Assembly (NCBI GenBank): GCA_045653405.1
Contig: JAZOLW010000031.1
Coordinates: 1 to 37,766, forward strand
From: Eubacteriales bacterium
GTDB lineage: Bacteria > Bacillota > Clostridia > Oscillospirales > CAG-382
Direction of reading: 5' to 3'
Length of the DNA: 37,766 nucleotides
Part shown: piece after piece, positions 14,983 through 36,589 of the stretch
How positions within the stretch are numbered: the first letter of the stretch is position 1
Layout: every line of letters starts with the position of its first letter
Program-made: the position numbers and the translations under genes
Notes under the pieces: generated by a model
Told to the model about the DNA's origin: nothing
The model's database searches: none
Seen by the model: only the letters and a program-made list of their open reading frames with translations

Positions 14983-15015
14983 TATTTGTTGATAAATTGA
15001 TAAATCTGAATCGGC

Positions 15016-15252
15016 TTATTTGTTTTGGTTATTACCAATTTTATTAATGATTGCCCCTGTGCAGATAACCATTTCAAACGCAAGGAAGAAAGCCGTACCG
15101 ATAATAATACCGCCCAATTCTCCCATGCCGTTAAACCAGGTCGCAAACACTGCTAAAAATATCCACTCTAAAACTATAGTAATCAAACCAATCAAAATGT
15201 ACTTCCACATATTTTTCATACAATTATTCTCTTTCATTATCTTGTTTATCAA
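15016..15252 (-). CDS. Small two-TM membrane protein, unknown function
   Basis: 78-aa ORF with two clear hydrophobic helices (WKYILIGLITIVLEWIFLAVF / IIIGTAFFLAFEMVICTGAII). The start is uncertain because several Met codons are available. Confidence 0.45.
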   Translation of the reverse strand: MINKIMKENNCMKNMWKYILIGLITIVLEWIFLAVFATWFNGMGELGGIIIGTAFFLAFEMVICTGAIINKIGNNQNK

Positions 15253-15386
15253 ATTATACTATAAAATAATTTATCTACCTTGCAATATCTATATCTTGGT
15301 AGTATAGCAATGTAGTCAATAGCACCTGATGTCAAGGTTTTTTCAATAAGTTAATGAGTTATAGGTATTGTTCAATTATGATGAGT

Positions 15387-15803
15387 TTATAAGTTGTCTT
15401 TTATTTTGCCAATAATTTCTGCATATTCTGCATCGGAAAGAAGTGTTTTCCCGGGGTTCATGGCAAACACACCGCCCCATTCAAACTCATTCTCATATTT
15501 GGGAACAAGATGAAAGTGAAGATGGCATCCTGTGTCTCCGTAAGCACCGTAGTTTACCTTTTTCGGGGAAAATGCTTTATGAATGGCACGAGATACTTTT
15601 GCAATATCCTCCATAAACCCTGCTCTTTCTTCGGGTGTCAGGTCTACTATTTCACTTACGTGCTTTTTGTGGGCAACAATTACCCTCCCTCTGTGGCTTT
15701 GTTCTTTGAATAGGTATACCTTGCTCTGTGACAATTCGCAGATTTTTATACCGAATGCATCAAGCAGTTCATTTTCCATACAGTAAGCACAGTTTTTATC
15801 CAT
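15387..15803 (-). CDS. HIT-family (histidine triad) nucleotide hydrolase/transferase
   Basis: Histidine triad HLHFHLVP. Start at ATG 15803 (MDKNCAYC) with RBS AAGGAGA. The longer track ORF lacks an RBS. Confidence 0.85.
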   Translation of the reverse strand: MDKNCAYCMENELLDAFGIKICELSQSKVYLFKEQSHRGRVIVAHKKHVSEIVDLTPEERAGFMEDIAKVSRAIHKAFSPKKVNYGAYGDTGCHLHFHLVPKYENEFEWGGVFAMNPGKTLLSDAEYAEIIGKIKDNL

Positions 15804-15995
15804 AATAATTCTCCTTTTTAAAAAATCACAATATAGTATCTTCATTGTATCACATAATTTGATGAATTTCAATAACAAAGACTGAAAATAATTTTTAAGG
15901 ATATCATAATTGTAAGTACAAAAGTTATAAATTTGTTTTATAAAGTAATGTTTTAATGCCGTACCGTTTTTTCGTATTCTTTGCGGAATAAAATC

Positions 15996-16043
15996 CGAAT
16001 AAAAAGCACTTGCAAGTTGCGTTTTATAACAACAGCAAGTGCT
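15996..16043 (-). terminator. Rho-independent terminator of the 16054..17718 gene
   Basis: 9-bp stem AGCACTTGC (16005..16013) / GCAAGTGCT (16035..16043). On the minus strand it is followed by TTTTTATT. Confidence 0.65.
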
Positions 16044-16053
16044 TGAGCTTTAG

Positions 16054-25083: not shown

Positions 25084-26000
25084 GTACACTTACAAAAGTT
25101 ATGATTTCTCCCCATATTCACAGCGGAAAATCAACTTCCGGAATTATGAGGGATGTACTGATTTCCTTACTTCCTGCAACTGTTGCGGGAACAGTGATTT
25201 TCGGTGTAAAAGCCTTGCTTCCCGTGCTTGTCTGCGTTGCTTTCTGCGTAGGCTTTGAAGCACTCTTCAATATGATTACAAAAAGAGAACAGACAATAGG
25301 CGATTTATCGGCAGTTGTTACAGGCTTGCTGCTTGCACTTAATCTTCCTGCAAACATTCCTCTCTGGCAGTGTGCAGTAGGCTCTCTGTTCGCAATAATT
25401 GTTGTTAAATGTCTGTTCGGAGGCATAGGATGTAACCTTGTAAACCCTGCTATTACCGCGAGAGTATTTATGCTTGTTGCTTTCGGTTCGATGGCTACAG
25501 CGGCTTTCCCTGTTGATACAGTGGCTGGCGCAACACCTCTTGCATCTGAAGAAATGCCATCTCTTATGACAATGTTCCTCGGTAATTACGGCGGAAGTAT
25601 CGGTGAAACCTGCACTGCGGCATTACTGCTTGGCGGCATCTATCTGCTGGTACGCAGAGTAATTACCTGGCACCTTCCCGTAGTGTTCATCGGAACAGTG
25701 TTTGTTTTCTCACTGTTCTTCACAGGTTTTGATGCCGTTGCAGCGCTCAGCCTTACAATGGCAGGCGGTGTGTTTATTGGTGCTGTCTTTATGGCTACCG
25801 ACTATGTAACATCTCCGTCAACAGCGTGGGGAAAAGTGATATTCGGTCTTGGTGCAGGACTTATTACCTGCCTAATCCGTTATTTTGGCAACTATCCCGA
25901 GGGAGTATCTTTTGCAATTCTGTTTATGAACATACTTACTCCTTACATAGATAGCTGGACAAAGCATAAAGTTTTTGCAACGGGAGGTAAAAAACAATGA
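25080..26000 (+). CDS. rnfD: Rnf complex subunit D
   Basis: NqrB/RnfD polytopic protein with the flavinylation-site motif VDTVAGATPLAS. GTG start overlaps the rnfC stop; ATG 25101 is an alternative start. Confidence 0.9.
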   Translation: MSTLTKVMISPHIHSGKSTSGIMRDVLISLLPATVAGTVIFGVKALLPVLVCVAFCVGFEALFNMITKREQTIGDLSAVVTGLLLALNLPANIPLWQCAVGSLFAIIVVKCLFGGIGCNLVNPAITARVFMLVAFGSMATAAFPVDTVAGATPLASEEMPSLMTMFLGNYGGSIGETCTAALLLGGIYLLVRRVITWHLPVVFIGTVFVFSLFFTGFDAVAALSLTMAGGVFIGAVFMATDYVTSPSTAWGKVIFGLGAGLITCLIRYFGNYPEGVSFAILFMNILTPYIDSWTKHKVFATGGKKQ

Positions 26001-27172
26001 AAAACAGTATAAAGAACCTCTCCGTGTTTGTTTGCATCTGTACTGTGATAACGGTGCTCTTGGCAATCACAAATTCATTTACGGCTCCCATTATTCTGAA
26101 AAATCAGAATGCTGCGGCAAACAAAGCGCTTCTTGAAGTAATGCCCGAAGGCACAGGCTTTGAGGCGGTAGATTTGAGCGAATATACATTGCCCGCAACC
26201 GTTTCTGAGGTTCACAGAGAAATAGCCGGCAAGGGTTATGTTGTAAAGCTGGTTACTACCGGTTACGGAACAGGTATGACAATTATGTGCGGTGTTGACG
26301 CAAACGGCGTTGTAACAGGTGCGGTGTGTCTTGCTTCCAATGAAACTCTTAGCAAGGAAAAGACTTACGGAGAAAACTTTACAAACAAAGATGCTGCAGG
26401 GGTTGACACCGTAGATATAATAGGCGGTGCGACAAAAACAACCGCGGCATACAAGAATGCAGTAAAGGATGCACTTAACGCAGCCATTATTCTGGGCGGC
26501 GGCTCTGTTGATATCCGAACAGAAGAAGAAATTCTTGCAGATAATCTTGCAGCAGCACTTCCTTCAGGCGAGGATGCGTTTACAAAGCAGTTCCTTACAG
26601 AGTATGTTGAAGGTGTAACCGGTGTTTATGCTGCCGATAACGGAACGGGTTATGTTTTTGTGGTTGACGAGCAGTTTATCGGCGTACTCGCAGACGGAAC
26701 TGTGGTGACAGAGGGTGCTGAAAATGCACAAGCTCTTTCTGAAGCTGTTGCAAAGATTAAGACAACAACATTTGAAGAAATTGACCTTTCAGCATATCCC
26801 GACCTTGCAAAAACCGTTGTTTCAGCTAAAAAGACATCTTCAGGAAACTTTGTTGTTGAAACAAAGGGTGCAGGCTATGGGAAAAAGGGCGGTAATGAGT
26901 ATCACCCTGCATCAGGTGAATATATTATTGTCAAAGTGGCAATGACACCCGATGGAAAAATTATTGATTGCATCACAGTTTCCGAAGCAGAAACAGACGG
27001 ACTTGGCGATGCGTGTGCAGATGAAAGCTTCTACGGCCAGTTTGTCGGTAAGTCAGAAGAAAACTATACGGATATTGATGCTATCGGCGGTGCAACAATG
27101 ACAACCGACGGTTATAAGCAGGCAATTGGGCGTGCATTTGATGCTGTAAAAACTTTTAACGGAGGAGAATGA
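25997..27172 (+). CDS. rnfG: Rnf complex subunit G, unusually long with two FMN-binding domains
   Basis: N-terminal TM anchor followed by two FMN_bind-like modules ending DIIGGATKTTAAYKNAVKDAL and DAIGGATMTTDGYKQAIGRAF. ATGA overlaps on both sides. Confidence 0.85.
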   Translation: MKNSIKNLSVFVCICTVITVLLAITNSFTAPIILKNQNAAANKALLEVMPEGTGFEAVDLSEYTLPATVSEVHREIAGKGYVVKLVTTGYGTGMTIMCGVDANGVVTGAVCLASNETLSKEKTYGENFTNKDAAGVDTVDIIGGATKTTAAYKNAVKDALNAAIILGGGSVDIRTEEEILADNLAAALPSGEDAFTKQFLTEYVEGVTGVYAADNGTGYVFVVDEQFIGVLADGTVVTEGAENAQALSEAVAKIKTTTFEEIDLSAYPDLAKTVVSAKKTSSGNFVVETKGAGYGKKGGNEYHPASGEYIIVKVAMTPDGKIIDCITVSEAETDGLGDACADESFYGQFVGKSEENYTDIDAIGGATMTTDGYKQAIGRAFDAVKTFNGGE

Positions 27173-27864
27173 TAATGGAAAAGAATAAATCTCTTTCCGT
27201 ACTAACAAACGGAATTATAAAAGAAAACCCGGTTCTTGTGCTGATTCTCGGAACTTGTCCCACCCTTGCAACAACAACTACGGTTACAGGTGCTCTCGGT
27301 ATGGGACTTGCGGCACTTGTGGTTTTACTTTGCTCAAACATTTTTATTTCGCTTCTTCGTAAAATTATTCCCGAAACAATGCGTATTCCTTGCTACATAG
27401 TAATTATTGCAGGATTTGTTACCATTGTAAAAATGATGGTTCAGGCGCTTTTCCCGGGACTTTATGAAACTCTTGGTGTATATCTTGACCTGATAACGGT
27501 AAACTGTATCATTCTCGGCCGTGCTGAAATGTTCGCAGGCAAGAATGCTGTTGTCGCTTCTGCTCTCGACGGCATAGGTATGGGTCTTGGCTTTACACTT
27601 GCTCTCGGAGCTATGTCTACAATCCGAGAAGTGCTGGGCTCAGGTTCATTTGCAGGCATTGCAATTCCCTTTATGGAAGAATATAAGATTGAATTTATGA
27701 CAAAAGCACCCGGCGGACTGCTTGTTTACGGATTGCTTATTGCGGCGGTTTACGCACTTACAAAGGGAAGATTTCCTAAAAAGAAATCATTTTCCTGCAG
27801 CGGATGTGTCCATGCGGGTATGTGCAGTGCCGCAAGCTGTGCAGGTAAGGAGGCTGAAAAGTAA
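27169..27864 (+). CDS. rnfE: Rnf complex subunit E (with a Cys-rich C-terminal tail)
   Basis: GIIKENPVLVLILGTCPTLA and ITVNCIILGRAE, the conserved NqrD/RnfE Cys motifs. The tail reads FSCSGCVHAGMCSAASC. Confidence 0.9.
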   Translation: MIMEKNKSLSVLTNGIIKENPVLVLILGTCPTLATTTTVTGALGMGLAALVVLLCSNIFISLLRKIIPETMRIPCYIVIIAGFVTIVKMMVQALFPGLYETLGVYLDLITVNCIILGRAEMFAGKNAVVASALDGIGMGLGFTLALGAMSTIREVLGSGSFAGIAIPFMEEYKIEFMTKAPGGLLVYGLLIAAVYALTKGRFPKKKSFSCSGCVHAGMCSAASCAGKEAEK

Positions 27865-28463
27865 TGGAAAACTTCAAAATTCTTATTGTTATTCTGCTTT
27901 CCTCAGTGTTTGTGGATAACTATGTACTCAGCCGTTTTCTCGGAATCTGTCCTTTCCTTGGTGTTTCAAAGAAACTGGATCAGGCATCCGGTATGGGTGT
28001 AGCCGTTACCATTGTTATGTTGCTTGCAACTGCGGCAACCTGGCCGATTCAGTATCTTGTACTTGATTCACTTGGGCTTGGATATCTGCAGAATATCGTT
28101 TTTATCCTTATCATCGCCACACTGGTGCAGATTCTGGAAATGGTTCTTAAAAAGATTTCACCTGCACTGTATAAGGGACTTGGCGTTTATCTGCCCCTTA
28201 TAACAACAAACTGTGCTGTTCTTGGTGTTACAATCAACAACATCAATGACAAGTATACTTTTGTGGAATCTATGGTAAGCTCCCTTGGCTGCGGTCTTGG
28301 CTTTTTACTTGCGATGGTTCTGTTCTCAGGACTTCGCTCCCGTATAAATGAAACCAATATTCCCGCGCCTTTCCGGGGACTTGCAGTTACACTTATTGCC
28401 GCATCATTTGTTTCCCTTGCATTTATGGGATTTGGTGGCATAGTACAAAACATTTTTGGTTAA
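27864..28463 (+). CDS. rnfA: Rnf complex subunit A
   Basis: NYVLSRFLGICPFLGVS and LITTNCAVLGV (NqrE/RnfA signature). TAATG overlap with rnfE. Confidence 0.92.
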   Translation: MENFKILIVILLSSVFVDNYVLSRFLGICPFLGVSKKLDQASGMGVAVTIVMLLATAATWPIQYLVLDSLGLGYLQNIVFILIIATLVQILEMVLKKISPALYKGLGVYLPLITTNCAVLGVTINNINDKYTFVESMVSSLGCGLGFLLAMVLFSGLRSRINETNIPAPFRGLAVTLIAASFVSLAFMGFGGIVQNIFG

Positions 28464-28478
28464 TATGAGGTGCTGATT

Positions 28479-29315
28479 ATGGAAATATTAATTGCATTTC
28501 TTATAATGCTCGCCATTGCACTGACGGCAGGGATTTTACTTCTTGTTTTCTCCCGTTTCTTTGCAGTGGAAAAAAATGAGCTTGAAAAAAACATAAGAGA
28601 ATGCCTTCCCGGCATCAACTGCGGTGCGTGCGGATATAAAGGTTGCGACGACTATGCAGCGGCTCTTGCTGAAGGCGGTGTTAAGCCTAATCTCTGTATT
28701 CCCGGCTCACTTAAGGTTGCAGAGGAGATAAGCGCACTCCTTGGTGTTACCGTTGAAGACGAAACTGTAGACGTTGTTGCCTTTGTGGCTTGTAACGGTC
28801 ATAAGGGAGTTACTTCTCCAGTGGCACAGTACGAAGGTGTTCAGACCTGCCGTGCAGCATCAATGCTTTATGGCGGTACAAATTCTTGCAGATACGGTTG
28901 TCTCGGACTTGGCGACTGCGCGGTAGTTTGTCCTGCAGGAGCTATCTGTATGGAAGACGGAATTGCACGTGTTGATACATCACGCTGTATAGGATGCGGT
29001 CTTTGTGAACAGACTTGCCCTAAGCATATTATTTCAATGCTTCCTCAGGATGCAGGCACAGTTGTTATGTGCAGTAACAAGCAGAAGGGTGCAGATGCTA
29101 TGAAGGCTTGCAAGAATGCTTGTATCGGCTGTAAAAAGTGTGAAAAGGCTTGTCCGAGCGGTGCTATAGTTATTAAGGATAATCTTGCTGCAATTGATTA
29201 TACTAAGTGTACAAACTGCGGACTTTGTATAGAAGGATGTCCTACAGGATGTCTGCATAAGATATTCTTCCCCGATTTGCCCGAAGATTACGATTATAAA
29301 GAAGTTATTGAATAA
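28479..29315 (+). CDS. rnfB: Rnf complex subunit B (polyferredoxin)
   Basis: ATG 28479 behind GAGGTG. N-terminal TM, CGACGYKGC cluster, and four CxxCxxCxxxCP-type motifs. Confidence 0.9.
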   Translation: MEILIAFLIMLAIALTAGILLLVFSRFFAVEKNELEKNIRECLPGINCGACGYKGCDDYAAALAEGGVKPNLCIPGSLKVAEEISALLGVTVEDETVDVVAFVACNGHKGVTSPVAQYEGVQTCRAASMLYGGTNSCRYGCLGLGDCAVVCPAGAICMEDGIARVDTSRCIGCGLCEQTCPKHIISMLPQDAGTVVMCSNKQKGADAMKACKNACIGCKKCEKACPSGAIVIKDNLAAIDYTKCTNCGLCIEGCPTGCLHKIFFPDLPEDYDYKEVIE

Positions 29316-29316
29316 T

Positions 29317-29718
29317 ATGAACAATCAGAAAAACACAGGCAGATTTCATTTGCGTAACGATATAATCTTTATTGCCGTACTGCTTGCAGTATGTGCAGTG
29401 GGATTGATTTATCTGTTTGTATTCCGTGAAAGCGGAGATACAGTAAAGGTCACCGTAAACGGTGACCTTTACGGGGTTTATTCTCTGTCGCAGGACTTGG
29501 AACAAGATATACGGACAGGTGAAAACGGAGAACAGCTCAACAGACTTGTTATCCGTGACGGCAAGGCTTATATGGAAAGGGCTACCTGCCCTGACGGAAT
29601 CTGCGTTGCTCACAGACCGATATTTCGCAACAGTGAAAGTGTTGTGTGCTTACCCAACAAAGTTGTGGTTACCGTGGTTAAGGAAGACGACACAGCTTCT
29701 CCTGATGTTGTGGCATAG
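29317..29718 (+). CDS. NusG domain II-containing membrane-anchored protein (former DUF1312)
   Basis: ATG 29317, 1 nt after the rnfB stop; the track start 29308 is TTG. TM anchor followed by VKVTVNGDLYGVYSL..ATCPDGICV..VCLPNKVVVTV, typical of this family. Confidence 0.75.
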   Translation: MNNQKNTGRFHLRNDIIFIAVLLAVCAVGLIYLFVFRESGDTVKVTVNGDLYGVYSLSQDLEQDIRTGENGEQLNRLVIRDGKAYMERATCPDGICVAHRPIFRNSESVVCLPNKVVVTVVKEDDTASPDVVA

Positions 29719-29729
29719 GGAGGAACAGT

Positions 29730-30236
29730 ATGAAAAAGAAAAACAAAATGGTTGCCTTTCTAGGTTTGTGTACTGCACTTGCCTTGATACTGGCATATGT
29801 GGAAATTCTGATACAACCTCTCGTTCCATCAATTCCCGGAATTAAAATGGGGCTTCCCAATATCATTATTGTGTTTTTACTCTATCGACGCGGATCGGTT
29901 TCAGCTATTTGCGTGTCAATGCTTCGTATAATTCTCGTGAATATGCTTTTCGGCAACTTTATGGCACTTGTATACAGCCTGGCAGGCGGAGTGCTGAGCC
30001 TTGCTGTTATGATACTGCTGAAAAAGTTAAACCTTATGTCTGTAGTGGGTGTAAGTGTTGCCGGCGGAGTCACGCATAATATCGGGCAGATCCTTACAGC
30101 AATGTTATTGCTTGAAACGGCAGAACTGGGATATTACCTTGCAGTACTTACCGTTACGGGCACCGTTGCAGGTATACTTATCGGGTTGTGCGGCTCGGTT
30201 ATGATAAAAAAGATACCTCAGAAAATGTTTTTGTAA
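29730..30236 (+). CDS. Gx transporter family protein (Hpre_diP_synt_I / PF07456-like membrane protein)
   Basis: Motifs GIKMGLPNI and AGGVTHNIGQI in a small 5-TM protein. This is the usual partner of NusG-II proteins. Confidence 0.75.
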   Translation: MKKKNKMVAFLGLCTALALILAYVEILIQPLVPSIPGIKMGLPNIIIVFLLYRRGSVSAICVSMLRIILVNMLFGNFMALVYSLAGGVLSLAVMILLKKLNLMSVVGVSVAGGVTHNIGQILTAMLLLETAELGYYLAVLTVTGTVAGILIGLCGSVMIKKIPQKMFL

Positions 30237-30254
30237 AATATGTTTGACAAATTA

Positions 30255-30284
30255 TTGACAAAACGCATAAGAATATGGTAAAAT
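30255..30284 (+). promoter_or_regulatory. Sigma-A promoter with extended -10 for the tandem-domain lipoprotein gene
   Basis: TTGACA (30255..30260), 18-nt spacer ending TGg, TAAAAT (30279..30284). A second TTGACA lies at 30244. Confidence 0.55.
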
Positions 30285-30328
30285 AGTTTGGCATTTAAAT
30301 TAATTTTATTTTTAAGGAGATTTTTACT

Positions 30329-31309
30329 ATGAAAAAGCTTTTAGTAATCGCACTTTGTGTGCTTATGGCAGTTCCTACATTTATGGTTGGATGTGACAAG
30401 GCAGACGTAGTTTCCACAGTTAAGTTCGGCGCAGGCGTGTACACAAGCGCACCCTCTGTTACAGATGCAACAGAAGATAAGAACGGTTCAGGTAAGCTCG
30501 ACGTTACAGCAGCCGCTGTTACAGTTGATGCAGACGGCAAAATCGTAGCTTGCCAGCTTGATACAGCAAGCAACACAGTAAACTTCACAGCTGACGGTAA
30601 GAGCGTTGCAAACGACGGCTTCAAGACTAAGTATGAACTCGGAACAGACTACAATATGGTTGCATACGGCGGATCAGTTAAGGAATGGTATGAACAGGCT
30701 GACGCATTTGAAGCACTTGTTGTTGGCAAGACACTTGACGAAGTTAAGGCTCTCGTTGCTGAAGCTAACAAGGGTACAGAAGAAGTTATAAACGCAGGCT
30801 GCACAATTATGATTCACGAATTTGTAGGCGCTATTGAAAAGGCAGTTGGTGCAGCAACAGTTGAAGTTGCGGCAGATGCAGTTCTTAAGGTGAATATGGC
30901 TACTGAACAGACTTGCGAAGACGCTACAGAAGAAAAAGACGGAAGCAATAAGATTTCCGTTTACGTATTCGCAGCTGCAAACGATGCTGAAGGCAAGGTA
31001 GTTGCTGCTTCCAGCGATTGTGTTGAACTTGCATTTACATTTGATGCACAGGGTGTTGCTACTCTCGATACAGCAAAGGCAGTTGTTTCCAAGAAGGAAC
31101 AGGGCACAGACTACGGTATGGTTGCATACGGCGGAGCAGTTAAGGAATGGTTCGAACAGGCTGCAGCATTTGACGCTACTTGTGTTGGTAAGACCGGAGC
31201 AGAAATCGCAGGTCTCCTTGCTGAAGACGGCAAGGGCGTAAGTGACCTCCAGACAGCAGGCTGCACAATCTATGTAACAGGCTTTGTAAAGGCTGCTTCC
31301 AAGAACTAA
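30329..31309 (+). CDS. Lipoprotein with two tandem FMN_bind-like repeats (PplA-like candidate ApbE substrate)
   Basis: RBS AAGGAGA and lipobox MVGC. It is an internal duplication of about 154 aa. Each copy carries GTDY(N/G)MVAYGG(S/A)VKEW(Y/F)EQA and ends ..AGCTI(M/Y)..F(V)..A..K, shaped like the end of an FMN_bind domain. Confidence 0.6.
   Translation: MKKLLVIALCVLMAVPTFMVGCDKADVVSTVKFGAGVYTSAPSVTDATEDKNGSGKLDVTAAAVTVDADGKIVACQLDTASNTVNFTADGKSVANDGFKTKYELGTDYNMVAYGGSVKEWYEQADAFEALVVGKTLDEVKALVAEANKGTEEVINAGCTIMIHEFVGAIEKAVGAATVEVAADAVLKVNMATEQTCEDATEEKDGSNKISVYVFAAANDAEGKVVAASSDCVELAFTFDAQGVATLDTAKAVVSKKEQGTDYGMVAYGGAVKEWFEQAAAFDATCVGKTGAEIAGLLAEDGKGVSDLQTAGCTIYVTGFVKAASKN
30641..30732 (+). 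repeat. Intragenic direct repeat, copy A (conserved core of the lipoprotein duplication)
   Basis: By eye, most positions are identical to 31103..31194 over about 92 nt (ggaacagactacaatatggttgcatacggcggatcagttaaggaatggta.. versus ggcacagactacggtatggttgcatacggcggagcagttaaggaatggtt..). The shift is 462 nt, so the copies are in frame. Confidence 0.85.
31103..31194 (+). repeat. Intragenic direct repeat, copy B
   Basis: See copy A. Similar off-frame ORF translations in the track (..TTIWLHTADQLRNGMNRL.. and ..TTVWLHTAEQLRNGSNRL..) confirm the DNA-level similarity. Confidence 0.85.
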
Positions 31310-31340
31310 TCGGTCTAAACGAAAATAAATACTGATGCAA

Positions 31341-31367
31341 AAAAAGGAGAGTTTTCTCCTTTTTTTG
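31341..31367 (+). terminator. Intrinsic terminator/attenuator hairpin between the lipoprotein gene and apbE
   Basis: AAAAAGGAGA-GTTT-TCTCCTTTTT followed by a T-run. It ends 9 nt before the apbE ATG. Confidence 0.65.
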
Positions 31368-31375
31368 CTAAATAT

Positions 31376-32431
31376 ATGATTATGAAATATAAACTGTTTG
31401 GCAGAGTCACGGCTCTGTGTCTGCTGATTTGTGTAATACTTTCAGCCTGTGCGGCAAAACCGCAGAAAATTAAATATTCAGCATATTCAATGGACTATTT
31501 CGATACTGTAATTACTGTTATCGGCTATGAAAACACAAAGGAAGAATTTGATGCCGTGGCAGATGAGGTGTTGAATCTGTTTGGTGAATATCACCGCCTG
31601 TATTCCATATATCACCGTTTTGACGGAATGGAAAATCTCTGCACAATCAACGATGTTGTAGACGGAGAACATCGTACAGTGACCGTAGACAGACGTATAA
31701 TTGATATGCTTATGTATGCAAAGGAAATGTACGATGCGACAGACGGCATAGTCAATGTGGCTATGGGCAGTGTTCTGTCACTGTGGCACAATTACCGTGA
31801 GATTGGTATGGATAACCCTGCACAGGCATCCCTTCCGCCAATGGAAAAATTAAAATCGGCGGCAGAGCACACAGACATCTCAAAAATGGTTATTGATGAG
31901 GAAAACTGCACAGTAACCCTCTTGGACCCGCTTATGAAACTTGATGTGGGAGCAATTGCCAAGGGATATGCTGTTGAATGTGTTGCCCGTTATATGGAAG
32001 AAAAGGGAATAAGCGGATATGTGCTGAATGTGGGCGGAAATATCCGTGCCATAGGAGGCAAGCCCGACGGAGAAAAATGGACTGTGGGAATTGAAGACCC
32101 TCTCGGAGGAGATTCTCTTGAATATCTGCAGTTAGAGGGCAAGTCCGTTGTTACAAGCGGTTCGTACCAAAGGTATTATTATGTGGACGGAAAATCGTAT
32201 CACCATATTATACATCCCGATACCCTTATGCCGGCAGAAGGATATTTGTCTGTGTCAATTATATGTGATAATTCGGGATTCGGTGATGCAATGTCAACTG
32301 CGCTGTTCTGTTTACCGAAGGAAAAAGGTGTGGAGCTTATTGAGGCTGTGCCGGGTACTGAAGCAATGTGGGTGGCAGAGGACGGCACTAAAACAGTGTC
32401 ATCCGGCTGGAATGAATATGTGAAAAAATAA
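31376..32431 (+). CDS. apbE: FAD:protein FMN transferase (ApbE family) lipoprotein
   Basis: Lipobox LSAC. ApbE-type sequence (MDYFDTVITV.., LDVGAIAKGYA, VLNVGGNI, VVTSGSYQRY.., HHIIHP). No obvious SD before either ATG (31376 or 31382). Confidence 0.88.
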   Translation: MIMKYKLFGRVTALCLLICVILSACAAKPQKIKYSAYSMDYFDTVITVIGYENTKEEFDAVADEVLNLFGEYHRLYSIYHRFDGMENLCTINDVVDGEHRTVTVDRRIIDMLMYAKEMYDATDGIVNVAMGSVLSLWHNYREIGMDNPAQASLPPMEKLKSAAEHTDISKMVIDEENCTVTLLDPLMKLDVGAIAKGYAVECVARYMEEKGISGYVLNVGGNIRAIGGKPDGEKWTVGIEDPLGGDSLEYLQLEGKSVVTSGSYQRYYYVDGKSYHHIIHPDTLMPAEGYLSVSIICDNSGFGDAMSTALFCLPKEKGVELIEAVPGTEAMWVAEDGTKTVSSGWNEYVKK

Positions 32432-32442
32432 GGAGAATTTGT

Positions 32443-32820
32443 ATGTTGGAAAATATTGTTGCTCAATATAAAGAAATTCTGTATGTACTGGCAGAATTTG
32501 CGGCATGCACACTGGAACTCATAGGTGTTCTCATAATTGTTGTCGGTTCATGCCGTGCACTGATACGTCTTTTACGCTGCCTTGTGAAAAAGCACCCTTT
32601 CCATATAGTTATTGACCTTGGCAAGGCGCTGTCTTTGGCACTTGAATTCAAAATGGGTGCTGAGATTATCAAAACGGTAATAATTCATAATCTTGAAGAA
32701 CTTGCAATTCTCGGTGTCGTAATTGTTATCCGTGCACTGCTTTCCGTTATTATTCACTGGGAAATAAGAACAGAGGAAAAAGAAAAAGCACTGAAAAACG
32801 GCGAAAGTTCACAACTGTAA
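32443..32820 (+). CDS. DUF1622 domain-containing membrane protein
   Basis: LELIGVLIIVVGS..LGKALSLALEFKMGAEIIKTVI is the typical DUF1622 core. RBS AAGGAGA. Lies 11 nt after apbE. Confidence 0.75.
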   Translation: MLENIVAQYKEILYVLAEFAACTLELIGVLIIVVGSCRALIRLLRCLVKKHPFHIVIDLGKALSLALEFKMGAEIIKTVIIHNLEELAILGVVIVIRALLSVIIHWEIRTEEKEKALKNGESSQL

Positions 32821-32842: not shown

Positions 32843-32878
32843 GAGCCTTGACGTTACTTTGTCAAGGCTCAATTTTTT
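32843..32878. terminator. Bidirectional rho-independent terminator
   Basis: Perfect 10-bp stem GAGCCTTGAC (32843..32852) / GTCAAGGCTC (32861..32870). It has a T-run on the plus strand (TTTTTT) and on the minus strand (TTTTTAC). It lies between convergent DUF1622 and the TIR gene. Confidence 0.85.
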
Positions 32879-32948: not shown

Positions 32949-35405
32949 TCAGTCTTTTAACGAATAACTGTCGTTTCCGTCAAGTGTCGGTCTCCCTGCT
33001 TTTACAAGCTCAGCATTAACCTTATCCAGAACCCGAGCTTTTTCTTCGATCATTCTTTGATGCTCTGCGAAGCGGCCGCCCATTTTGGCAGTTTTTATAA
33101 GAACGTCAAAACTGTTAATGTATTTTACATACGCGCTAACAAGCTGTGTGTCATCCGCCGCTTCCGCAAGAAGCCCGTTCGCTTTTTTGTATGCTCTTAA
33201 AGCTGCAGAGTAACGTTTTTGTGCGCCTTGTATCTTGCCCATGAGAGAGAATGAATCCGCTAGATCATACAAGAAAATCTTTTTGTTGTCAGCTTTTTCC
33301 AAGATTTCCTCGTTCCGTTTTATGCTATTTTCAACCTGCTCCAGTGCCTCCGGGAGCATATCTCTCTCAAACAGCAAGCACGCCCATTTGTAATAAGTCC
33401 TGTACACATCACACATAGCACTAAAGGTGTGCGTTTGTTCTTCGATCTCGGAAAACAACTTAATAGCATCATCAAATTTGTCACTCTCCCGATAACATAC
33501 CGCAAGCAAGCGTTTAGTGCTGGGAGAGTCATCCGCACTCACGGCTTCTTTACCGAGCTCCAGCGCACATTTGTACAAAAATGCAGCGTAATCTGAGTCA
33601 GATTCGTATTTTGCAGATGCGTAAATGTCGGCGGCATTTATATATGCCGAGATCAAAAGAAGCTTAGTATCTAATGTGCCGTGCTGTTCATTTAATTTTT
33701 TGATTATGGAAACAGCAGTATTACTGCATTCTATAGCTTTGCGATCGTAGCCTGTTTCAATATGCATATGGGCACAGCGATTATGAAAACTAAACAGCCG
33801 CCTTTGAACACGGAAATCATCTGTTTGTGAGCTTTTGGAGATCAAATCGCGGTAGTTTGATTCTATCCGCAGTGCTTCCAGATAACTTGACCGGTACATA
33901 GTATTCTGATCAAGCGCCCGATGTGAATCTCCTATGTTTTGGTGGTTTTCCATAAGTTCAAGAACCGACTCAAGAGTAGGATCCTGCTTCAGCGAATCTT
34001 CTAAAAGGGAAACTGATTTGTTGAATATACAGCGTGCGTGAAAATATTCACCCATCTCCATAAGATTTTTCCCGCACATTCCATATGCAAAGATGAGAAT
34101 TTTTCTGACAAGAATGCTTCCGGAAATTCGGCTATCGACTCCAAACGGTCCCATCCTGTTCAAGTATATATGGTTGGCAAGAGAGAAATCGTGTGTGTTT
34201 TGATATAACTCTGCCAACGCAAGATAAGCCACAAGAACGTTTTTTGCTGCCTGCTCACATACGTTTTCCTCAAAAGCATTTGTGCGAAGCTCAATCAACC
34301 GTTCATACCATCTTATAGCCTCTTCAGTGTCTTTTTGTACGCCATCTCCAATTGAGCACATAAATGCGAATTTGTTTATGGCTTCGTCCAAACCTGCTTC
34401 GGCTGCAGAACGAATCATCATAACCCCGATATCGCTGTTTTTCTCTACACGCAAACCGAACAGATAAGCAAGCCCAATCAGATAGTCCCGCTGAGGAGAG
34501 TCGTTTTGTACCGTAAGTCCGAATCTGCAGCTTAATTCTCTCAAGAAATTGCCAAAAGCCGCATCATTCTTAGCAACAATAGCGGGCGATATTCCCTGAA
34601 AAGCACGGACAAGCTCCGTTCGACCGGTGTGTTCCATTTCGACAGGTACAATTTCCTTTCTCATAGAGCACGCTTCGGGATATTCTACCTTAATTATGTA
34701 ATTGTTTTCAGCTACCGTATTTGGAGTGACAAGAAGGATCATTATATCGCTTTCTTGCAAAGCCTCCTTGATACTGTCATTGAAACTTTCCCCGGGCGCC
34801 AGAAATTCATCATACCAAATGGATATTCCAAGAAGATCCTTTTGTTTATGAATCATATGCATTAGTGTGTTTGCCAATGCACGGTCTTTTTTTCTGTAGC
34901 TCAGGAATATGGTTCCCGAAAAGGCTTGGCGAATACTTTCAACTTTTACAGTATCGGGAAAAAACTGATTCAAGTAACTTGTCAGCTTTTCCTGATACGG
35001 GATAGCAGTCGGATCGTCGTCAACTGCAGACAGCCATTGTATATCGCCGTAAAACTCGTTGAATTGCACCTGAAGGTCCTGTTCCATCATCAGGGGAAGC
35101 ACAGGTATTTTGTTTTCCCTTGCAATGCTTATATCTCTTAAAAAAGATTCGGGACGCTCAGAAAGCAATGCTGAGGTCACAACGAATACAAAAAGATGCA
35201 TATTTTTTAATTCAAAACGCACCTGCTCCCTGTCGACGGGATTATCATCCGCAGGATAATAAAAGACAGAACAGTCCTTCGCCAGCAGTATATCCGATGT
35301 AACCTTTTCCAATTTGTGAAATTCGTTTGGATGATAGGATACATATACCTTCGGCTTGTCGGAAACAGTTGCATTTTTTCTTACTACTACTTTGATGTCA
35401 GCCAT
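32949..35405 (-). CDS. Tandem TIR-domain protein with Sel1 and TPR-like repeats (818 aa)
   Basis: Residues about 18-108 are TIR-like (KVYVSYHPNE..VFVVTSALLS..IPVLPL). Residues about 164-260 are a canonical bacterial TIR (TIFLSYRKKD..ISIWYDEFLAPGESFNDSI..SDIMILLVTPN..KVEYPEA..IVPV). Residues about 305-370 are Sel1-like repeats (AAEAGLDEAINKFAFMCSIGDGVQKDTEEAIRWYERL). The rest is all-helical and TPR-like. No P-loop seen. Confidence 0.75.
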   Translation of the reverse strand: MADIKVVVRKNATVSDKPKVYVSYHPNEFHKLEKVTSDILLAKDCSVFYYPADDNPVDREQVRFELKNMHLFVFVVTSALLSERPESFLRDISIARENKIPVLPLMMEQDLQVQFNEFYGDIQWLSAVDDDPTAIPYQEKLTSYLNQFFPDTVKVESIRQAFSGTIFLSYRKKDRALANTLMHMIHKQKDLLGISIWYDEFLAPGESFNDSIKEALQESDIMILLVTPNTVAENNYIIKVEYPEACSMRKEIVPVEMEHTGRTELVRAFQGISPAIVAKNDAAFGNFLRELSCRFGLTVQNDSPQRDYLIGLAYLFGLRVEKNSDIGVMMIRSAAEAGLDEAINKFAFMCSIGDGVQKDTEEAIRWYERLIELRTNAFEENVCEQAAKNVLVAYLALAELYQNTHDFSLANHIYLNRMGPFGVDSRISGSILVRKILIFAYGMCGKNLMEMGEYFHARCIFNKSVSLLEDSLKQDPTLESVLELMENHQNIGDSHRALDQNTMYRSSYLEALRIESNYRDLISKSSQTDDFRVQRRLFSFHNRCAHMHIETGYDRKAIECSNTAVSIIKKLNEQHGTLDTKLLLISAYINAADIYASAKYESDSDYAAFLYKCALELGKEAVSADDSPSTKRLLAVCYRESDKFDDAIKLFSEIEEQTHTFSAMCDVYRTYYKWACLLFERDMLPEALEQVENSIKRNEEILEKADNKKIFLYDLADSFSLMGKIQGAQKRYSAALRAYKKANGLLAEAADDTQLVSAYVKYINSFDVLIKTAKMGGRFAEHQRMIEEKARVLDKVNAELVKAGRPTLDGNDSYSLKD

Positions 35406-35407
35406 AA

Positions 35408-36160
35408 TTATTTATTCTGAGAAACGTGTATAACTTGGTTTTCTTCAATCTCAACCAGAATGACGCCTCGAACCTCGGTAACGAATTCCTCAGGTTCCCA
35501 TGCTCTGATATTACTCGCTTCCGGTTCTATTAGAGCGTGGCATTCATCATACAAAATATCGCACCAGTCTTGTGTTTCATTTTCTATAGACTGACGGGCA
35601 AAATTTTTAATGGTTTCGGACTCCCCGTGAAATAAATTGTAAAACAAATTCAAATAGTTGTTTTCGGAATTTTTATATGCTTCCAATACTCTTTTATTGC
35701 CAAACGCAAAGGTATTCTGCAGATTTTCGGGAAGCTTTACGGATCTTTCGCCTATGAAATCTCCACTAAGCCTGTCGTAAAAAATAAATATCGCCTCATC
35801 GACAGGATTGTTGATGTCATTCATATCAGGGATGATTCCGTGAGAGGTAAAAACATCGCCCCATTGAAAATCCCCGAATTTAATCATAAAATGATTTGTC
35901 AATCTGGCGGGAAAGACACCTAACGAAATATTTTCGTTTAAAACCATATCAACTTCATCGTCAGAAAAATCCGACCAACGTGTAACAAAAATCAATTTGT
36001 TGCCAAAGGCATAGCAGTTAACACCGTCAGGAATATTCACTCCAACAATGTCCATATAAATGGAGAAATCTGTATCCATACGTGTGGCTACTAAGCAGCG
36101 ACCCCTTTTCGGAAGGACAGCTTCCTCTATTAAGATGTTACCGTATTCTTTTTTAAACAT
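35408..36160 (-). CDS. Hypothetical cytoplasmic protein (250 aa), first gene of the TIR operon
   Basis: RBS AGGAG 8 nt before the ATG. Its stop lies 2 nt before the TIR gene ATG. No TM segment, no signal peptide and no motif I recognise. Confidence 0.6.
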   Translation of the reverse strand: MFKKEYGNILIEEAVLPKRGRCLVATRMDTDFSIYMDIVGVNIPDGVNCYAFGNKLIFVTRWSDFSDDEVDMVLNENISLGVFPARLTNHFMIKFGDFQWGDVFTSHGIIPDMNDINNPVDEAIFIFYDRLSGDFIGERSVKLPENLQNTFAFGNKRVLEAYKNSENNYLNLFYNLFHGESETIKNFARQSIENETQDWCDILYDECHALIEPEASNIRAWEPEEFVTEVRGVILVEIEENQVIHVSQNK

Positions 36161-36210
36161 AATATTTCACTCCTGCTTGTTTGTTTATTTAAAATAAAAA
36201 AACCGATTAC

Positions 36211-36239
36211 AGTATAACACAGGAACGGTAAAAAAACAA
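36211..36239 (-). promoter_or_regulatory. Putative promoter of the two-gene TIR operon
   Basis: Minus strand: TTGTTT (36239..36234), 17-nt spacer, extended -10 TGtTATACT (-10 at 36216..36211). About 45 nt upstream of ATG 36160. Confidence 0.45.
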
Positions 36240-36589
36240 GTGTACATTGGCAAAAGTACCGCAATTGGCGGAAAGACGGGGAACGGTCACAGTCACTTAT
36301 TTTTTTGCAAAGGTTTCTGTATTTTTCATCACGGCTATGGTCTATGAAGGAAGTTCGTACGGAGAAAAAGAAGAGTCGTTGAAAAAAGATACAGACTTAG
36401 AAACCGAATCCGAGTAAATAAAATATTAAGACCGCCCATCACACGGGTCGTCTAATAACACGGCTATTTAGTTATCACATAATCAATCTCACTCGCACCT
36501 GCAAGATTATATCGACAAATATTGACATAAAACGAAAAAAGTAGTATTCTTATAGTAATAACATTTAAAAATGTTCAAGGATGGGTTTT

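What the first reader, a model, noticed from the sequence alone, without database searches (positions are those of the whole stretch)
32949..36239. Self-contained two-gene operon (unknown 250-aa protein plus tandem-TIR/Sel1/TPR protein): candidate undescribed TIR-based immune system
Seen in the sequence:
- The operon is on the minus strand and has its own putative promoter (TTGTTT-17-TGtTATACT).
- Only 2 nt separate gene 1's stop from gene 2's start.
- A perfect bidirectional terminator closes it.
- It is wedged between a housekeeping flavinylation cluster and a GNAT gene, both on the opposite strand.
- The few 60-nt lines I hand-counted in it were about 35-45% GC. Sampled lines in rnfD and uxuA were about 52-53%, but GNAT lines were also low. 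Composition is therefore only a weak hint.

The 818-aa protein has two N-terminal TIR-type domains, followed by Sel1 repeats and about 450 aa of TPR-like helices.

Established knowledge: bacterial TIR domains are NAD+-consuming effectors or signal generators in Thoeris, CBASS (TIR-STING), Avs/TIR-NLR and other anti-phage systems. Repeat domains such as TPR often act as sensors.

I see no SIR2/SLOG ThsA partner, no STING domain, no cyclase and no STAND/P-loop NTPase. The partner protein has no recognisable domain. The architecture therefore does not match any TIR system I know.
Basis: partly seen in the sequence, partly recalled or inferred. Interest (0 to 1): 0.8.

Follow-up and report, generated by a model that had tools for sequence, protein, structure and literature searches.

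The report
Tandem-TIR TPR sensor with new partner
A two-gene unit in a gut Clostridia genome encodes a likely NAD+-destroying sensor protein (two TIR domains plus a variable repeat 'antenna') and a small partner of unseen fold that is always inherited with it; it looks like a new variant of a known kind of bacterial antiviral defence, but nothing has been tested experimentally.

Summary
Two minus-strand genes, 250 aa and 818 aa, lie 2 nt apart, with a conserved extended -10 promoter and a bidirectional terminator, between housekeeping genes.

The 818-aa protein has a degenerate TIR copy, then a TIR with an invariant SARM1-type catalytic Glu (E241), then Sel1 repeats and a fast-evolving TPR solenoid. 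It has no NTPase. It belongs to a large family in gut and rumen Clostridia: at least 533 places in species-representative genomes, often multi-copy.

The 250-aa partner has a confident model but no fold or sequence match to anything known. It is co-conserved. All 14 examined members of the window's TIR-TPR clade have an adjacent partner homologue, often fused to Sel1 repeats; none of about 77 other family members do. One lineage keeps the partner beside an in-frame deletion remnant of the TIR-TPR gene. Both genes are under purifying selection.

Verdict: a new variant of a known kind. It is probably a TPR-gated NADase immune sensor with a novel accessory subunit. Immunity and the partner's role are inferred, not shown.

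The parts
36234..36239 (-). -35-like hexamer TTGTTT of the operon promoter
   Evidence: Read. Identical in the second genome, L094. Matches only 3 of 6 of TTGACA, so the scanner did not list it.
36211..36219 (-). Extended -10 element TG-t-TATACT, 17 nt after the -35
   Evidence: The orthologous site in L094 reads TGtTATAAT.
36170..36174 (-). Shine-Dalgarno AGGAG, 9 nt before the ATG of gene 1
   Evidence: Sequence read.
35408..36160 (-). Gene 1: the 250-aa partner ('X domain'), a cytoplasmic protein of unknown fold
   Evidence: ORF. No Pfam, PADLOC or NCBIfam hit. AF2 pLDDT 93.9, pTM 0.91. No fold match in PDB or BFVD. The family has 33 representatives among 1.84 billion proteins. dN/dS 0.11.
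35406..35407 (-). 2-nt spacer between the stop of gene 1 and the ATG of gene 2. There is no Shine-Dalgarno for gene 2, which suggests translational coupling.
34935..35405 (-). Gene 2, residues 1-157: TIR1, a degenerate duplicate TIR domain. It has Asp91 where the catalytic Glu would be.
   Evidence: hhalign of TIR1 against TIR2 profiles: probability 97.5%, E 7.6e-12. No Pfam or PDB sequence hit on its own. Residue statistics. Codon checked.
34521..34934 (-). Gene 2, residues 158-295: TIR2, the predicted NAD+ glycohydrolase domain
   Evidence: Pfam TIR_2, best stretch 166-261. The profile hits AbTIR 8g83, tir-1/SARM1 8p2m and 7uxr. Motifs FLSYRKKDR, IWYDEFLxPGE and NYxxxxEYPxA are invariant in 85 of 85 sequences.
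34683..34685 (-). Codon of Glu241, the predicted catalytic glutamate of TIR2
   Evidence: Aligns with the Glu of WVHKE in tir-1/SARM1, with the same 13-residue spacing to the next beta-strand Pro. Invariant in 85 of 85. Codon verified.
34266..34520 (-). Gene 2, residues 296-380: Sel1 repeats, part of the conserved N-terminal module
   Evidence: Pfam Sel1 1.3e-7. PDB Sel1 proteins hit profile positions 301-374. 39% mean identity across the family.
32949..34265 (-). Gene 2, residues 381-818 plus stop: variable TPR-like alpha-solenoid, the predicted sensor. It ends in a C-terminal cap motif that appears only in the partner-associated sequences.
   Evidence: TPR_12, TPR_2 and TPR_1 hits. All-helical model, pLDDT mostly above 90. 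Foldseek hits LGN, OGT and other TPR superhelices. Only 18-19% identity across the family. The AKLAGxF-like tail is visible only in the sequences later shown to be partner-associated.
32843..32870 (.). Bidirectional intrinsic terminator shared with the convergent DUF1622 gene
   Evidence: 11-bp stem with 6 G-C pairs, A-run before and T-run after, scored on both strands.

Best explanation
The operon encodes a cytoplasmic, TPR-gated TIR NADase sensor and a clade-specific accessory subunit.

Shown:
- The 818-aa protein has a degenerate TIR duplicate, a TIR carrying all catalytic hallmarks (E241), Sel1 repeats and a fast-evolving TPR solenoid.
- It belongs to a very large, often multi-copy family in gut and rumen Clostridia.
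- The 250-aa protein is a new domain that is co-inherited with exactly one clade of that family. It is frequently fused to Sel1 repeats.
- Both genes are under purifying selection.

Inferred mechanism:
- At rest, the helical Sel1/TPR region and the inactive TIR1 keep TIR2 off. This resembles the ARM repeats of SARM1 and the solenoid of DSR2.
- Binding of an invader (phage) protein to the variable TPR surface drives oligomerisation of the TIR domains.
- E241 then cleaves NAD+, causing NAD+ depletion, with or without production of an ADPR-type signal. The infected cell arrests, which is abortive infection.
- The partner most likely binds the TIR-TPR protein, through the Sel1 module or the clade-specific C-terminal cap, as a co-sensor or regulator. 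It may compensate for the clade's loss of the TIR1 glutamate.

The partner's role is the least certain step.
For: TIR identity and catalytic residue:
- Pfam TIR_2 scores 59 bits against a cut-off of 28.
- The family profile hits the NADases AbTIR and tir-1/SARM1. Invariant E241 lies on the catalytic Glu, with identical spacing to the next strand.
- E241 is present in 85 of 85 sequences.

Tandem TIR:
- hhalign probability 97.5%.

Receptor-like evolution:
- The N-terminal module is 36-46% identical across the family, against 18-19% for the TPR region.
- There are at least 533 places in GTDB species representatives, with several copies per genome (for example the SIG592 and Tb.RUG.209 MAGs) and tandem arrays such as L027, L028, L065 and L071.
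- There is no NTPase and no other effector domain, so the TIR is the only plausible output.

Partner linkage:
- An X or X-Sel1 gene is adjacent in 14 of 14 clade members, with gaps of 2-44 nt. It is adjacent to none of about 77 other family genes.
- In L001 and L002, X is followed by an in-frame deletion remnant of a TIR-TPR gene.
- The clade never has Glu at the TIR1 position, against 48 Glu and 24 Asp of 80 elsewhere; Fisher p = 2.6e-4.
- X is fused to, or sits next to, Sel1 repeats in many contexts.

Functionality:
- dN/dS is 0.11 for X and 0.17 for TIR-TPR. The promoter is conserved.

Precedent:
- E. coli TIR-II, a TIR+TPR protein, protects against phages and needs its TIR active site (PMC11350192).
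- BcTir/Tpr pairs an inactive TIR with an NADase-TPR protein (10.1101/2023.05.26.542521).
Against: - There is no defence-island context. The 108 genes flanking family members are mostly housekeeping, such as pyruvate kinase, PFL, pth and DNA pol III delta'. Only about seven kinds of PADLOC hit occur.
- The window locus itself sits between Rnf/ApbE and a GNAT.
- The family is absent from the phage and plasmid collections, and the partner is absent from viral contigs.
- PADLOC and NCBIfam give only weak, domain-level TIR hits.
- No experiment supports NADase activity, oligomerisation, phage sensing or X binding.
- X also occurs without a neighbouring TIR-TPR in L003, L090 and L091.
- Most of the family works without X, so X cannot be essential to the core mechanism.
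Confidence: 0.45

Rival explanations
1. A Thoeris-like signalling system. The TIR-TPR protein senses infection and makes an ADPR-derived second messenger. The 250-aa X protein is the downstream effector that receives it. In sister loci this role may fall to X-Sel1 and/or the 649-aa HD/RyR-like protein.
For: - X is strictly co-inherited with one TIR clade, as with ThsB and effector pairs.
- X has conserved polar residues (N48, N54, K55, R61, E69, N114, D129, R139) that suggest a ligand or active site.
- Many newly validated Thoeris effectors are domains of unknown function, and helical-repeat (TPR) modules are proposed signal receivers in ThsI and BcTpr (10.64898/2025.12.03.692087; 10.1101/2023.05.26.542521). 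X is often fused to Sel1 repeats.
- A third conserved gene with HD-like motifs sits in five sister loci.
Against: - X has no transmembrane segment and no recognisable killing domain or nucleotide-binding fold.
- About 85% of the family has no partner, which fits a self-sufficient NADase.
- X(-Sel1) occurs away from any TIR gene in L003, L090 and L091.
- The window lacks the 649-aa gene.
Confidence: 0.22
2. A toxin-antitoxin-like pair. X is an inhibitor or immunity protein that holds the TIR-TPR NADase inactive. Its loss or titration during infection releases the toxin.
For: - In the window X is the upstream gene, 2 nt from the TIR gene, which has no SD of its own. This is typical coupled expression.
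- X survives intact where the TIR-TPR gene has been deleted in L001 and L002, as expected for an antitoxin outliving its toxin.
- Orphan X genes exist.
Against: - In 11 of 14 clade members X is downstream of the TIR gene.
- Most family members need no such inhibitor.
- X is large (250 aa, two subdomains) and is often fused to Sel1 repeats, which is unlike typical antitoxins.
Confidence: 0.1
3. Not an immune system. The TIR-TPR family would be a lineage-specific NAD+-linked regulatory or housekeeping module of Clostridia, for example controlling dormancy, sporulation or redox state, with TPR and Sel1 as ordinary protein-interaction scaffolds.
For: - Neighbours are housekeeping genes, not defence genes.
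- The locus is stable between two genomes and under purifying selection.
- The family is not on phages or plasmids.
- SpoVT lies beside four loci.
Against: - Distribution is patchy and multi-copy, with tandem paralogues and a hypervariable TPR region. These are features of receptors in conflict.
- One lineage has an in-frame deletion.
- The operon's dS is 2-5 times lower than that of the flanking core genes, which suggests recent exchange.
- Every bacterial TIR with this catalytic Glu characterised so far acts in conflict, according to the literature read here (PMC11350192; 10.64898/2025.12.03.692087).
Confidence: 0.15
4. A host-directed TIR effector, like the Tcp-type TIR proteins that interfere with animal TLR signalling, made by a gut commensal.
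For: The carriers live in animal guts (record titles). TIR and Sel1 repeats occur in host-interaction proteins; this rests on established knowledge and was not tested here.
Against: - Neither protein has a signal peptide or a transmembrane segment in the sequence.
- No secretion genes are nearby.
- The many paralogues per genome and the NADase-type catalytic Glu are better explained by intracellular conflict.
Confidence: 0.03

Closest known systems
E. coli TIR-II system (TIR + TPR protein; Nat Commun 2024, PMC11350192)
   Same: TIR and TPR lie in one polypeptide. It needs no ThsA-like partner, and about 70% of members lack an ATPase. Its TIR active site is required for anti-phage activity. Additional proteins are sometimes encoded alongside. 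It is described as the most widespread of the new TIR systems.
   Different: The sequence relationship could not be tested, because no accession or sequence was available. The window protein also has a degenerate second TIR and a Sel1 module, comes from Clostridia, and has a specific novel-fold partner. No phenotype is known.
BcTir/Tpr system of Bacillus cereus (bioRxiv 10.1101/2023.05.26.542521)
   Same: It combines a catalytically dead TIR (Glu to Lys) with an active NAD+-cleaving domain joined to TPR repeats. The TPR tunes activity. It is a small operon in Firmicutes and depletes NAD+ on infection.
   Different: There the dead TIR is a separate protein, and the active domain is described as MilB-like glycosidase rather than Pfam TIR_2. 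Here both TIRs and the repeats are fused, and the second gene is an unrelated new domain.
Thoeris (ThsB TIR plus effectors ThsA to ThsL; 10.64898/2025.12.03.692087)
   Same: A TIR gene is co-inherited with a variable adjacent gene. Some effectors carry TPR domains (ThsI), and many are domains of unknown function.
   Different: No known Thoeris effector is present. ThsB models give only weak partial hits (34.9 bits over 80 of 319 positions). The TIR protein itself carries a large repeat sensor. The family is not enriched next to defence genes, which was the entry criterion of that survey.
SARM1 / C. elegans TIR-1
   Same: The catalytic Glu and its spacing align. A helical-repeat region sits in the same polypeptide as the TIR, consistent with autoinhibition released by ligand binding and oligomerisation.
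   Different: Domain order is reversed (ARM-SAM-TIR against TIR-TIR-Sel1-TPR). There is no SAM domain. It is a eukaryotic protein, and overall sequence similarity is limited to the TIR.
DSR2 (SIR2 NADase with C-terminal alpha-solenoid sensor; PMC11850899, PMC10973363)
   Same: It is a single protein with an N-terminal NADase and a C-terminal helical-repeat sensor that binds a phage structural protein. This is the functional template for the mechanism proposed here.
   Different: The NADase fold is SIR2, not TIR. There is no homology and no accessory partner.
Avs / TIR-NLR STAND defence proteins
   Same: They combine a TIR effector with a C-terminal TPR-type sensor and show diversifying repeat regions.
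   Different: The defining STAND NTPase is absent here.

Membership tests
TIR domain superfamily (Pfam TIR_2, PF13676) | Significant match to the family HMM above the curated cut-off | tested here: met
   59 bits against a cut-off of 28, E 8.6e-16, best stretch residues 166-261.
TIR NADases (SARM1 / AbTIR type) | Catalytic glutamate in the alpha-C region | tested here: met
   E241 aligns with the Glu of WVHKE in tir-1/SARM1 (8p2m, 8p2l), with identical spacing to the following strand. It is invariant in 85 of 85 family members.
TIR NADases (SARM1 / AbTIR type) | NAD+ cleavage activity | not testable with these tools
   Needs a biochemical assay.
   No Pfam or PDB sequence hit on its own. However, hhalign of the TIR1 profile against the TIR2 profile gives probability 97.5% and E 7.6e-12 over 103 columns. 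It has Asp rather than Glu at the catalytic position.
Thoeris | ThsB-type TIR gene next to a known effector (SIR2-SLOG, Macro, or another described Ths effector) | tested here: not met
   The partner has no hit in PADLOC, Pfam or NCBIfam. ThsB models match only about 80 residues of the TIR. The NCBIfam Thoeris type III ThcB4 model scores 15.6 bits against a cut-off of 220.
CBASS / Pycsar TIR effectors | A STING, SAVED or cyclic-nucleotide-binding domain, plus a cyclase gene | tested here: not met
   No such domain in either protein or in the flanks. The TIR-SAVED model matches the TIR part only.
Avs / TIR-NLR (STAND) | A central STAND/P-loop NTPase | tested here: not met
   No NTPase HMM hit. 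The AF2 model is purely helical repeats from residue 281 to 802.
E. coli TIR-II (TIR + TPR) | TIR and TPR in one protein, or in adjacent genes, without a signalling effector | tested here: met
   Architecture shown, compared with the description in PMC11350192.
E. coli TIR-II (TIR + TPR) | Sequence homology to the validated TIR-II protein | not testable with these tools
   Accessions are only in Supplementary Data 2, which is not held.
E. coli TIR-II (TIR + TPR) | Anti-phage protection that depends on the TIR active site | not testable with these tools
   Needs an experiment.
BcTir/Tpr | A separate inactive TIR protein plus a MilB-like glycosidase-TPR protein | tested here: inconclusive
   The logic is analogous: a dead TIR, an active NADase and TPR repeats. 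Here they are fused in one chain, and the second gene is unrelated. No BcTpr sequence was available for comparison.
Defence-island genes (guilt by association) | Homologues enriched next to known defence genes | tested here: not met
   Of 108 immediately flanking proteins from 78 loci, each matched PADLOC family was hit by a single protein, giving about seven kinds. Pfam shows mainly housekeeping neighbours.
Two-gene system (partner co-conservation) | The partner gene is co-inherited with the TIR gene | tested here: met
   Met for the window's clade only: 14 of 14 have an adjacent X or X-Sel1 gene, against 0 of about 77 outside the clade. A deletion remnant lies next to X in L001 and L002.

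The most novel reading that the evidence does not exclude
The tandem-TIR-Sel1-TPR family would be a large NLR-like receptor repertoire of gut Clostridia that lacks an NTPase. Defence-island-based discovery misses it because its genes are scattered among housekeeping genes. In the window's clade, the new-fold X domain, together with the 649-aa HD/RyR-like protein in sister loci, would be a previously unknown class of TIR-signal receiver or effector, or a new co-sensor. That would define a new multi-gene TIR signalling system.
Probability: 0.25. Interest if true: 0.8.

Novelty: new variant of a known kind. Interest (0 to 1): 0.55.

Why it matters
- If the prediction holds, gut and rumen Clostridia carry hundreds to thousands of NTPase-less TIR-TPR receptors. 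These organisms are a dominant and poorly studied part of animal microbiomes, and standard defence-island searches do not find these genes. The known immune repertoire of these bacteria would then be substantially incomplete.
- The partner is a confidently folded protein with no structural relative. It is genetically tied to one TIR clade that has lost the glutamate of its first TIR domain. That offers a tractable case for learning how accessory subunits regulate or read out TIR NADases, which is relevant to SARM1-type enzymes and to plant and bacterial TIR signalling.
- Practically, at least one cultured carrier of the family exists (Gemmiger formicilis An723, L051).
- The operon is small (3.3 kb) and has its own promoter and terminator, so it is easy to clone.

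Tried and rejected
- Composition as evidence of horizontal acquisition: rejected. GC is the same as the window.
- Single-sequence scan of reference genomes: found nothing. It was repeated with an alignment.
- Word-indexed homology search for the partner: found only 2 relatives. The profile version was swamped by Sel1-repeat candidates. The exhaustive profile search gave 33.
- First impression that the partner is not co-conserved, because P0002 and P0003 are not next to a TIR gene: overturned by clade-wide context and by the deletion remnant next to P0002.
- Fold searches of the partner against PDB and BFVD: no match.
- Sequence-profile searches of the partner: PDB gave only Sel1 hits from fused members. 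PHROGs hit only four other members and not the window's X; these are presumably the Sel1-fused members.
- Fold search of the full TIR-TPR model: dominated by TPR proteins and uninformative for the TIRs. The same was true of the full-length PDB profile search, so domain-only profiles were used instead.
- Phage or plasmid origin: no family members in the phage or plasmid collections. Viral contigs were scanned for the partner only, with no hit.
- Rfam scan of the locus, for a riboswitch or sRNA in the 420-nt upstream region: nothing.
- Shared synteny with L034 (ApbE near a TIR-TPR gene): strand and intervening genes differ, so this is not simple conservation.
- Characterising the 649-aa third gene: only sub-threshold HD, RyR and DUF7167 hits. 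No PDB or PADLOC hit.
- Obtaining the TIR-II sequence for direct comparison: supplements are not held.
- The Burroughs & Aravind 2020 source paper is not in the library.

Full report
**1. What is in the sequence**

The two minus-strand ORFs exist exactly as described: 35408-36160 (250 aa) and 32949-35405 (818 aa). The junction reads TAA-tt-ATG, and there is no Shine-Dalgarno before the second ATG. The first gene has AGGAG 9 nt before its ATG.

Upstream lies TTGTTT, then 17 nt, then TG-t-TATACT (36239-36211). The consensus scanner did not list it, because the -35 matches only 3 of 6. It is an extended -10 type and is conserved in a second genome, where the -10 is TATAAT.

An 11-bp GC-rich hairpin at 32843-32870, flanked by an A-run and a T-run, scores as a terminator on both strands. 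It serves the convergent DUF1622 gene as well.

The flanks are the Rnf complex, an FMN-binding lipoprotein, ApbE and DUF1622 on one side, and a GNAT acetyltransferase on the other.

GC of the operon (0.39-0.43) does not differ from the window. Rfam finds nothing in the locus.

**2. The 818-aa protein**

Pfam gives TIR_2 (59 bits, cut-off 28), Sel1 and several TPR families. PADLOC and NCBIfam give only weak, partial TIR hits to ThsB, TIR-SAVED and ThcB4 models.

An AlphaFold2 model built on 85 homologues is confident (pLDDT 89.3). It shows two alpha/beta domains (about 1-120 and 164-270) followed by uninterrupted helical repeats from 281 to 802. There is no room for a STAND NTPase.

A profile of the second alpha/beta domain hits the NADases AbTIR (8g83, E 9e-4) and C. 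elegans tir-1/SARM1 (8p2m, E 4e-3). The family's invariant Glu (E241 in the window protein) falls on the catalytic Glu of the WVHKE motif. The spacing to the next strand's Pro is the same 13 residues.

E241 and the motifs FLSYRKKDR, IWYDEFLxPGE and NY are invariant in 85 of 85 sequences.

The first domain has no Pfam or PDB sequence hit by itself. A profile-profile comparison with the second domain gives probability 97.5% and E 7.6e-12. At the catalytic position the window protein has Asp91.

**3. The family**

The word-indexed search returned more than 2,700 significant relatives, all about 30% identical over nearly the full length. Where they are named, the names are only 'TIR domain-containing' or 'tetratricopeptide repeat' protein from Ruminococcaceae, Oscillospiraceae or Clostridia MAGs.

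These are mostly Oscillospiraceae, Lachnospiraceae and other gut or rumen Clostridia. Several genomes contribute 2-4 loci, and some loci hold tandem paralogues (L027, L028, L065, L071, L049).

Across the family the N-terminal TIR-TIR-Sel1 module is 36-46% identical to the window protein, but the TPR region only 18-19%. A constant enzymatic head with a variable repeat tail and many paralogues is the pattern expected of a receptor family in conflict.

The genes are nevertheless not in defence islands. Of 108 proteins immediately flanking family members in 78 loci, PADLOC models were hit by only a handful: one CARF/Csx1-type protein, mad3, mad8, MzaA, a subtilase, a Toprim ATPase and a TIR. Pfam shows ordinary housekeeping neighbours.

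The family is absent from the phage and plasmid collections.

**4. The 250-aa partner ('X')**

X has no hit in Pfam, PADLOC, NCBIfam or PHROGs. An exhaustive profile search of 1.84 billion representative proteins finds only 33 relatives.

The AF2 model is very confident (pLDDT 93.9, pTM 0.91). It has a beta-rich N-terminal half, a helical bundle and a C-terminal hairpin. Foldseek finds nothing in the PDB (best E 0.036, TM 0.13) or in BFVD. The PDB sequence-profile search hits only the Sel1 extension of some members.

Conserved polar residues (N48, N54, K55, R61, E69, N114, D129, R139) suggest a binding or active site.

Many relatives carry a Pro-rich linker and C-terminal Sel1 repeats.

**5. 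Is the partner co-conserved?**

At first it seemed not. The two closest relatives found by word search, P0002 (55% identical) and P0003 (36%), are not next to a TIR gene. Wider context reversed this view.

- (a) Among the 78 genome loci fetched for TIR-TPR relatives, three have an X homologue immediately downstream: L019, L070 and L077, with gaps of 10-17 nt. A metagenome locus adds a fourth, L093.
- (b) The eight closest TIR-TPR relatives looked up individually (P0019, P0008, P0007, P0036, P0005, P0017, P0070, P0035) all have X or X-Sel1 directly downstream.
- (c) In a neighbour-joining tree of the N-terminal module, all ten X-associated genes known at that point group together. No other two-TIR family member falls among them. 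The only interloper is L058_503, a long-branch single-TIR protein.
- (d) The 98-aa ORF that follows P0002 in two independent samples is an in-frame fusion. Its first part matches residues 17-56 of the window TIR-TPR protein (43% identity, E 2e-8), and its second part matches residues 765-804 (35% identity, E 7e-6). It is the remnant of an internal deletion of about 710 codons.

The tally is therefore 14 of 14 clade members with an adjacent X, one lineage with X plus a TIR-TPR remnant, and 0 of about 77 non-clade genes. X also occurs away from TIR genes in a few places: L003 next to a Sel1 protein, and L090 and L091 as X-Sel1 fusions.

The same clade never has Glu at the TIR1 catalytic position (D2, A4, V2, I1, R1). 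Outside the clade the position is Glu in 48 and Asp in 24 of 80; Fisher p = 2.6e-4. The sequences of this clade also share a C-terminal cap motif (AKLAGxF-like; AKMGGRF in the window).

Five sister loci carry a further conserved upstream gene of 649 aa. It has HD-like motifs and sub-threshold HD, RyR and DUF7167 hits. The window has no copy.

**6. Is the operon functional?**

A second genome (GCA_052832045.1, L094) has the same operon at the same site next to DUF1622, ApbE and Rnf. The TIR-TPR proteins are 93% identical.

dN/dS is 0.11 for X and 0.17 for the TIR-TPR gene (TIR2 0.11, TPR 0.18). This is similar to the flanking core genes at 0.03-0.12. Both genes are therefore maintained by selection.

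Their dS (0.16-0.18) is 2-5 times lower than that of the flanking genes (0.31-0.85). This suggests the operon was exchanged between the lineages more recently than the surrounding chromosome.

**7. Mechanism**

Shown: a TIR with all catalytic hallmarks, a degenerate TIR duplicate, a conserved Sel1 module, a variable TPR solenoid, no other output domain, and a clade-specific co-inherited partner.

Inferred, by analogy with SARM1, DSR2, E. coli TIR-II and BcTir/Tpr: the helical region keeps the TIRs inactive. Ligand binding, probably by a phage protein, to the variable TPR surface promotes TIR-TIR assembly. E241 then cleaves NAD+, which arrests the infected cell.

The partner's role is unresolved. 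I favour an accessory co-sensor or regulator that binds the TIR-TPR protein, for three reasons: most of the family works without it, it is repeatedly joined to protein-interaction repeats, and its presence correlates with loss of the TIR1 glutamate.

Three other readings remain open: a Thoeris-like reading with X as effector, an antitoxin reading, and a non-immune reading. They are scored as rivals.

**8. Comparison with what is known**

TIR+TPR defence is not new as a class.

- A TIR-TPR protein from E. coli (TIR-II) protects against phages in a manner that depends on the TIR active site. It is described as the most widespread of the new TIR systems, sometimes with extra genes (PMC11350192).
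- The B. cereus BcTir/Tpr pair joins a dead TIR with an NADase-TPR protein.
- The Thoeris effector ThsI carries a TPR domain thought to perceive cADPR.

The locus fails the membership tests for Thoeris, CBASS/Pycsar and Avs. Sequence homology to TIR-II or BcTpr could not be tested.

Four things appear new:
- the tandem-TIR-Sel1-TPR architecture as a very large Clostridia family;
- its location outside defence islands. The 2025 systematic TIR survey required such enrichment, so the family was probably outside its scope;
- the X domain of unmatched fold;
- the clade-specific X module, with or without the 649-aa gene.

**9. Verdict**

This is a new variant of a known kind of system. The partner of unknown fold and the scale of the family raise its interest. 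The absence of any functional evidence, the lack of defence-island context and the existing TIR-TPR precedents limit it. Interest 0.55.

Noticed in passing
window 32949-36160 compared with 25997-32820; L094: Between the window and genome GCA_052832045.1, the operon's synonymous divergence (dS 0.16-0.18) is 2-5 times lower than that of the adjacent core genes (DUF1622 0.72, ApbE 0.47, HepPP synthase I 0.85, RnfG 0.33). This suggests the operon was exchanged or swept more recently than its chromosomal surroundings.
   Followed up: partly
L001 1662-1958 and L002 1628-1924: A 98-aa ORF directly after the closest partner homologue is an in-frame fusion of the first ~55 residues of TIR1 to the last ~40 residues of the TPR tail. 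A ~710-codon internal deletion of the TIR-TPR gene has occurred while the partner is kept intact. It is seen in two independent samples.
   Followed up: yes
L070 4013-5962; L095 2030-3979; L098 2030-3979; L101 2042-3991; L105 676-2625; L051 6627-8603: A conserved 649-aa protein (74-80% identical among the five operon copies; the L051 copy is about 60% identical to them) is encoded immediately upstream of the TIR-TPR gene in five sister loci. A copy also lies near a non-clade TIR-TPR gene in the isolate Gemmiger formicilis An723. It shows HD-like motifs (HRDHYVHS, LFHDIGYP, LCDELQ) and sub-threshold HD, RyR and DUF7167 hits, with no PDB or PADLOC match. It is absent from the window.
   Followed up: partly
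window 14500-16500: This is the lowest-GC patch of the window (0.335-0.37). It holds minus-strand genes for a HIT-domain protein (15387-15878) and a DUF4153 membrane protein (16054-17718), and coincides with a local reversal of GC skew.
   Followed up: no
L027, L028, L065, L071, L049: Two or three TIR-TPR paralogues lie in head-to-tail tandem arrays (gaps 38-846 nt). In the tree, the members of an array are each other's closest relatives in L027, L028 and L049, which indicates recent local duplication.
   Followed up: partly
L027 (Spirochaetaceae MAG), L049 (Muribaculaceae MAG), L071 (Bacilli MAG), L036 and L074 (Erysipelotrichaceae): Family members sit on contigs binned to non-Clostridia lineages. 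This could be cross-phylum transfer or binning contamination; the two were not distinguished.
   Followed up: no
L076, L077 9720-10382, L087, L098 9177-9719: A SpoVT/AbrB-type regulator gene lies next to or near the TIR-TPR locus in four unrelated loci. This may be a recurrent insertion site near the spoVT region, or chance.
   Followed up: no
L034 1416-8754: A Candidatus Avispirillum MAG has an FMN-binding lipoprotein and ApbE (55% identical to the window's) two genes away from a non-clade TIR-TPR gene. Orientation and intervening genes differ from the window, so this is either a recurrent site or coincidence.
   Followed up: partly
L003 1937-8111: The partner homologue P0003 sits in a co-directional run of eight genes with no Pfam hit except one Sel1 protein. 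The run is preceded by a divergent XRE-type HTH gene. It may be a larger uncharacterised module.
   Followed up: no
L090 5001-7655: An X-Sel1 fusion gene with no TIR nearby is followed by IS21-type transposase genes (Mu-transposase C-terminal domain and IstB). It is preceded by a DnaJ-TPR protein with a C-terminal membrane region that gives weak DUF4231/SLATT-like hits.
   Followed up: no
window 36161-36580: The 420-nt region between the operon and the divergent GNAT gene is unusually long. Its promoter-distal part no longer matches L094 position for position in an end-anchored visual comparison; only the promoter-proximal ~170 nt match (no gapped alignment was made). There is no Rfam hit.
   Followed up: partly
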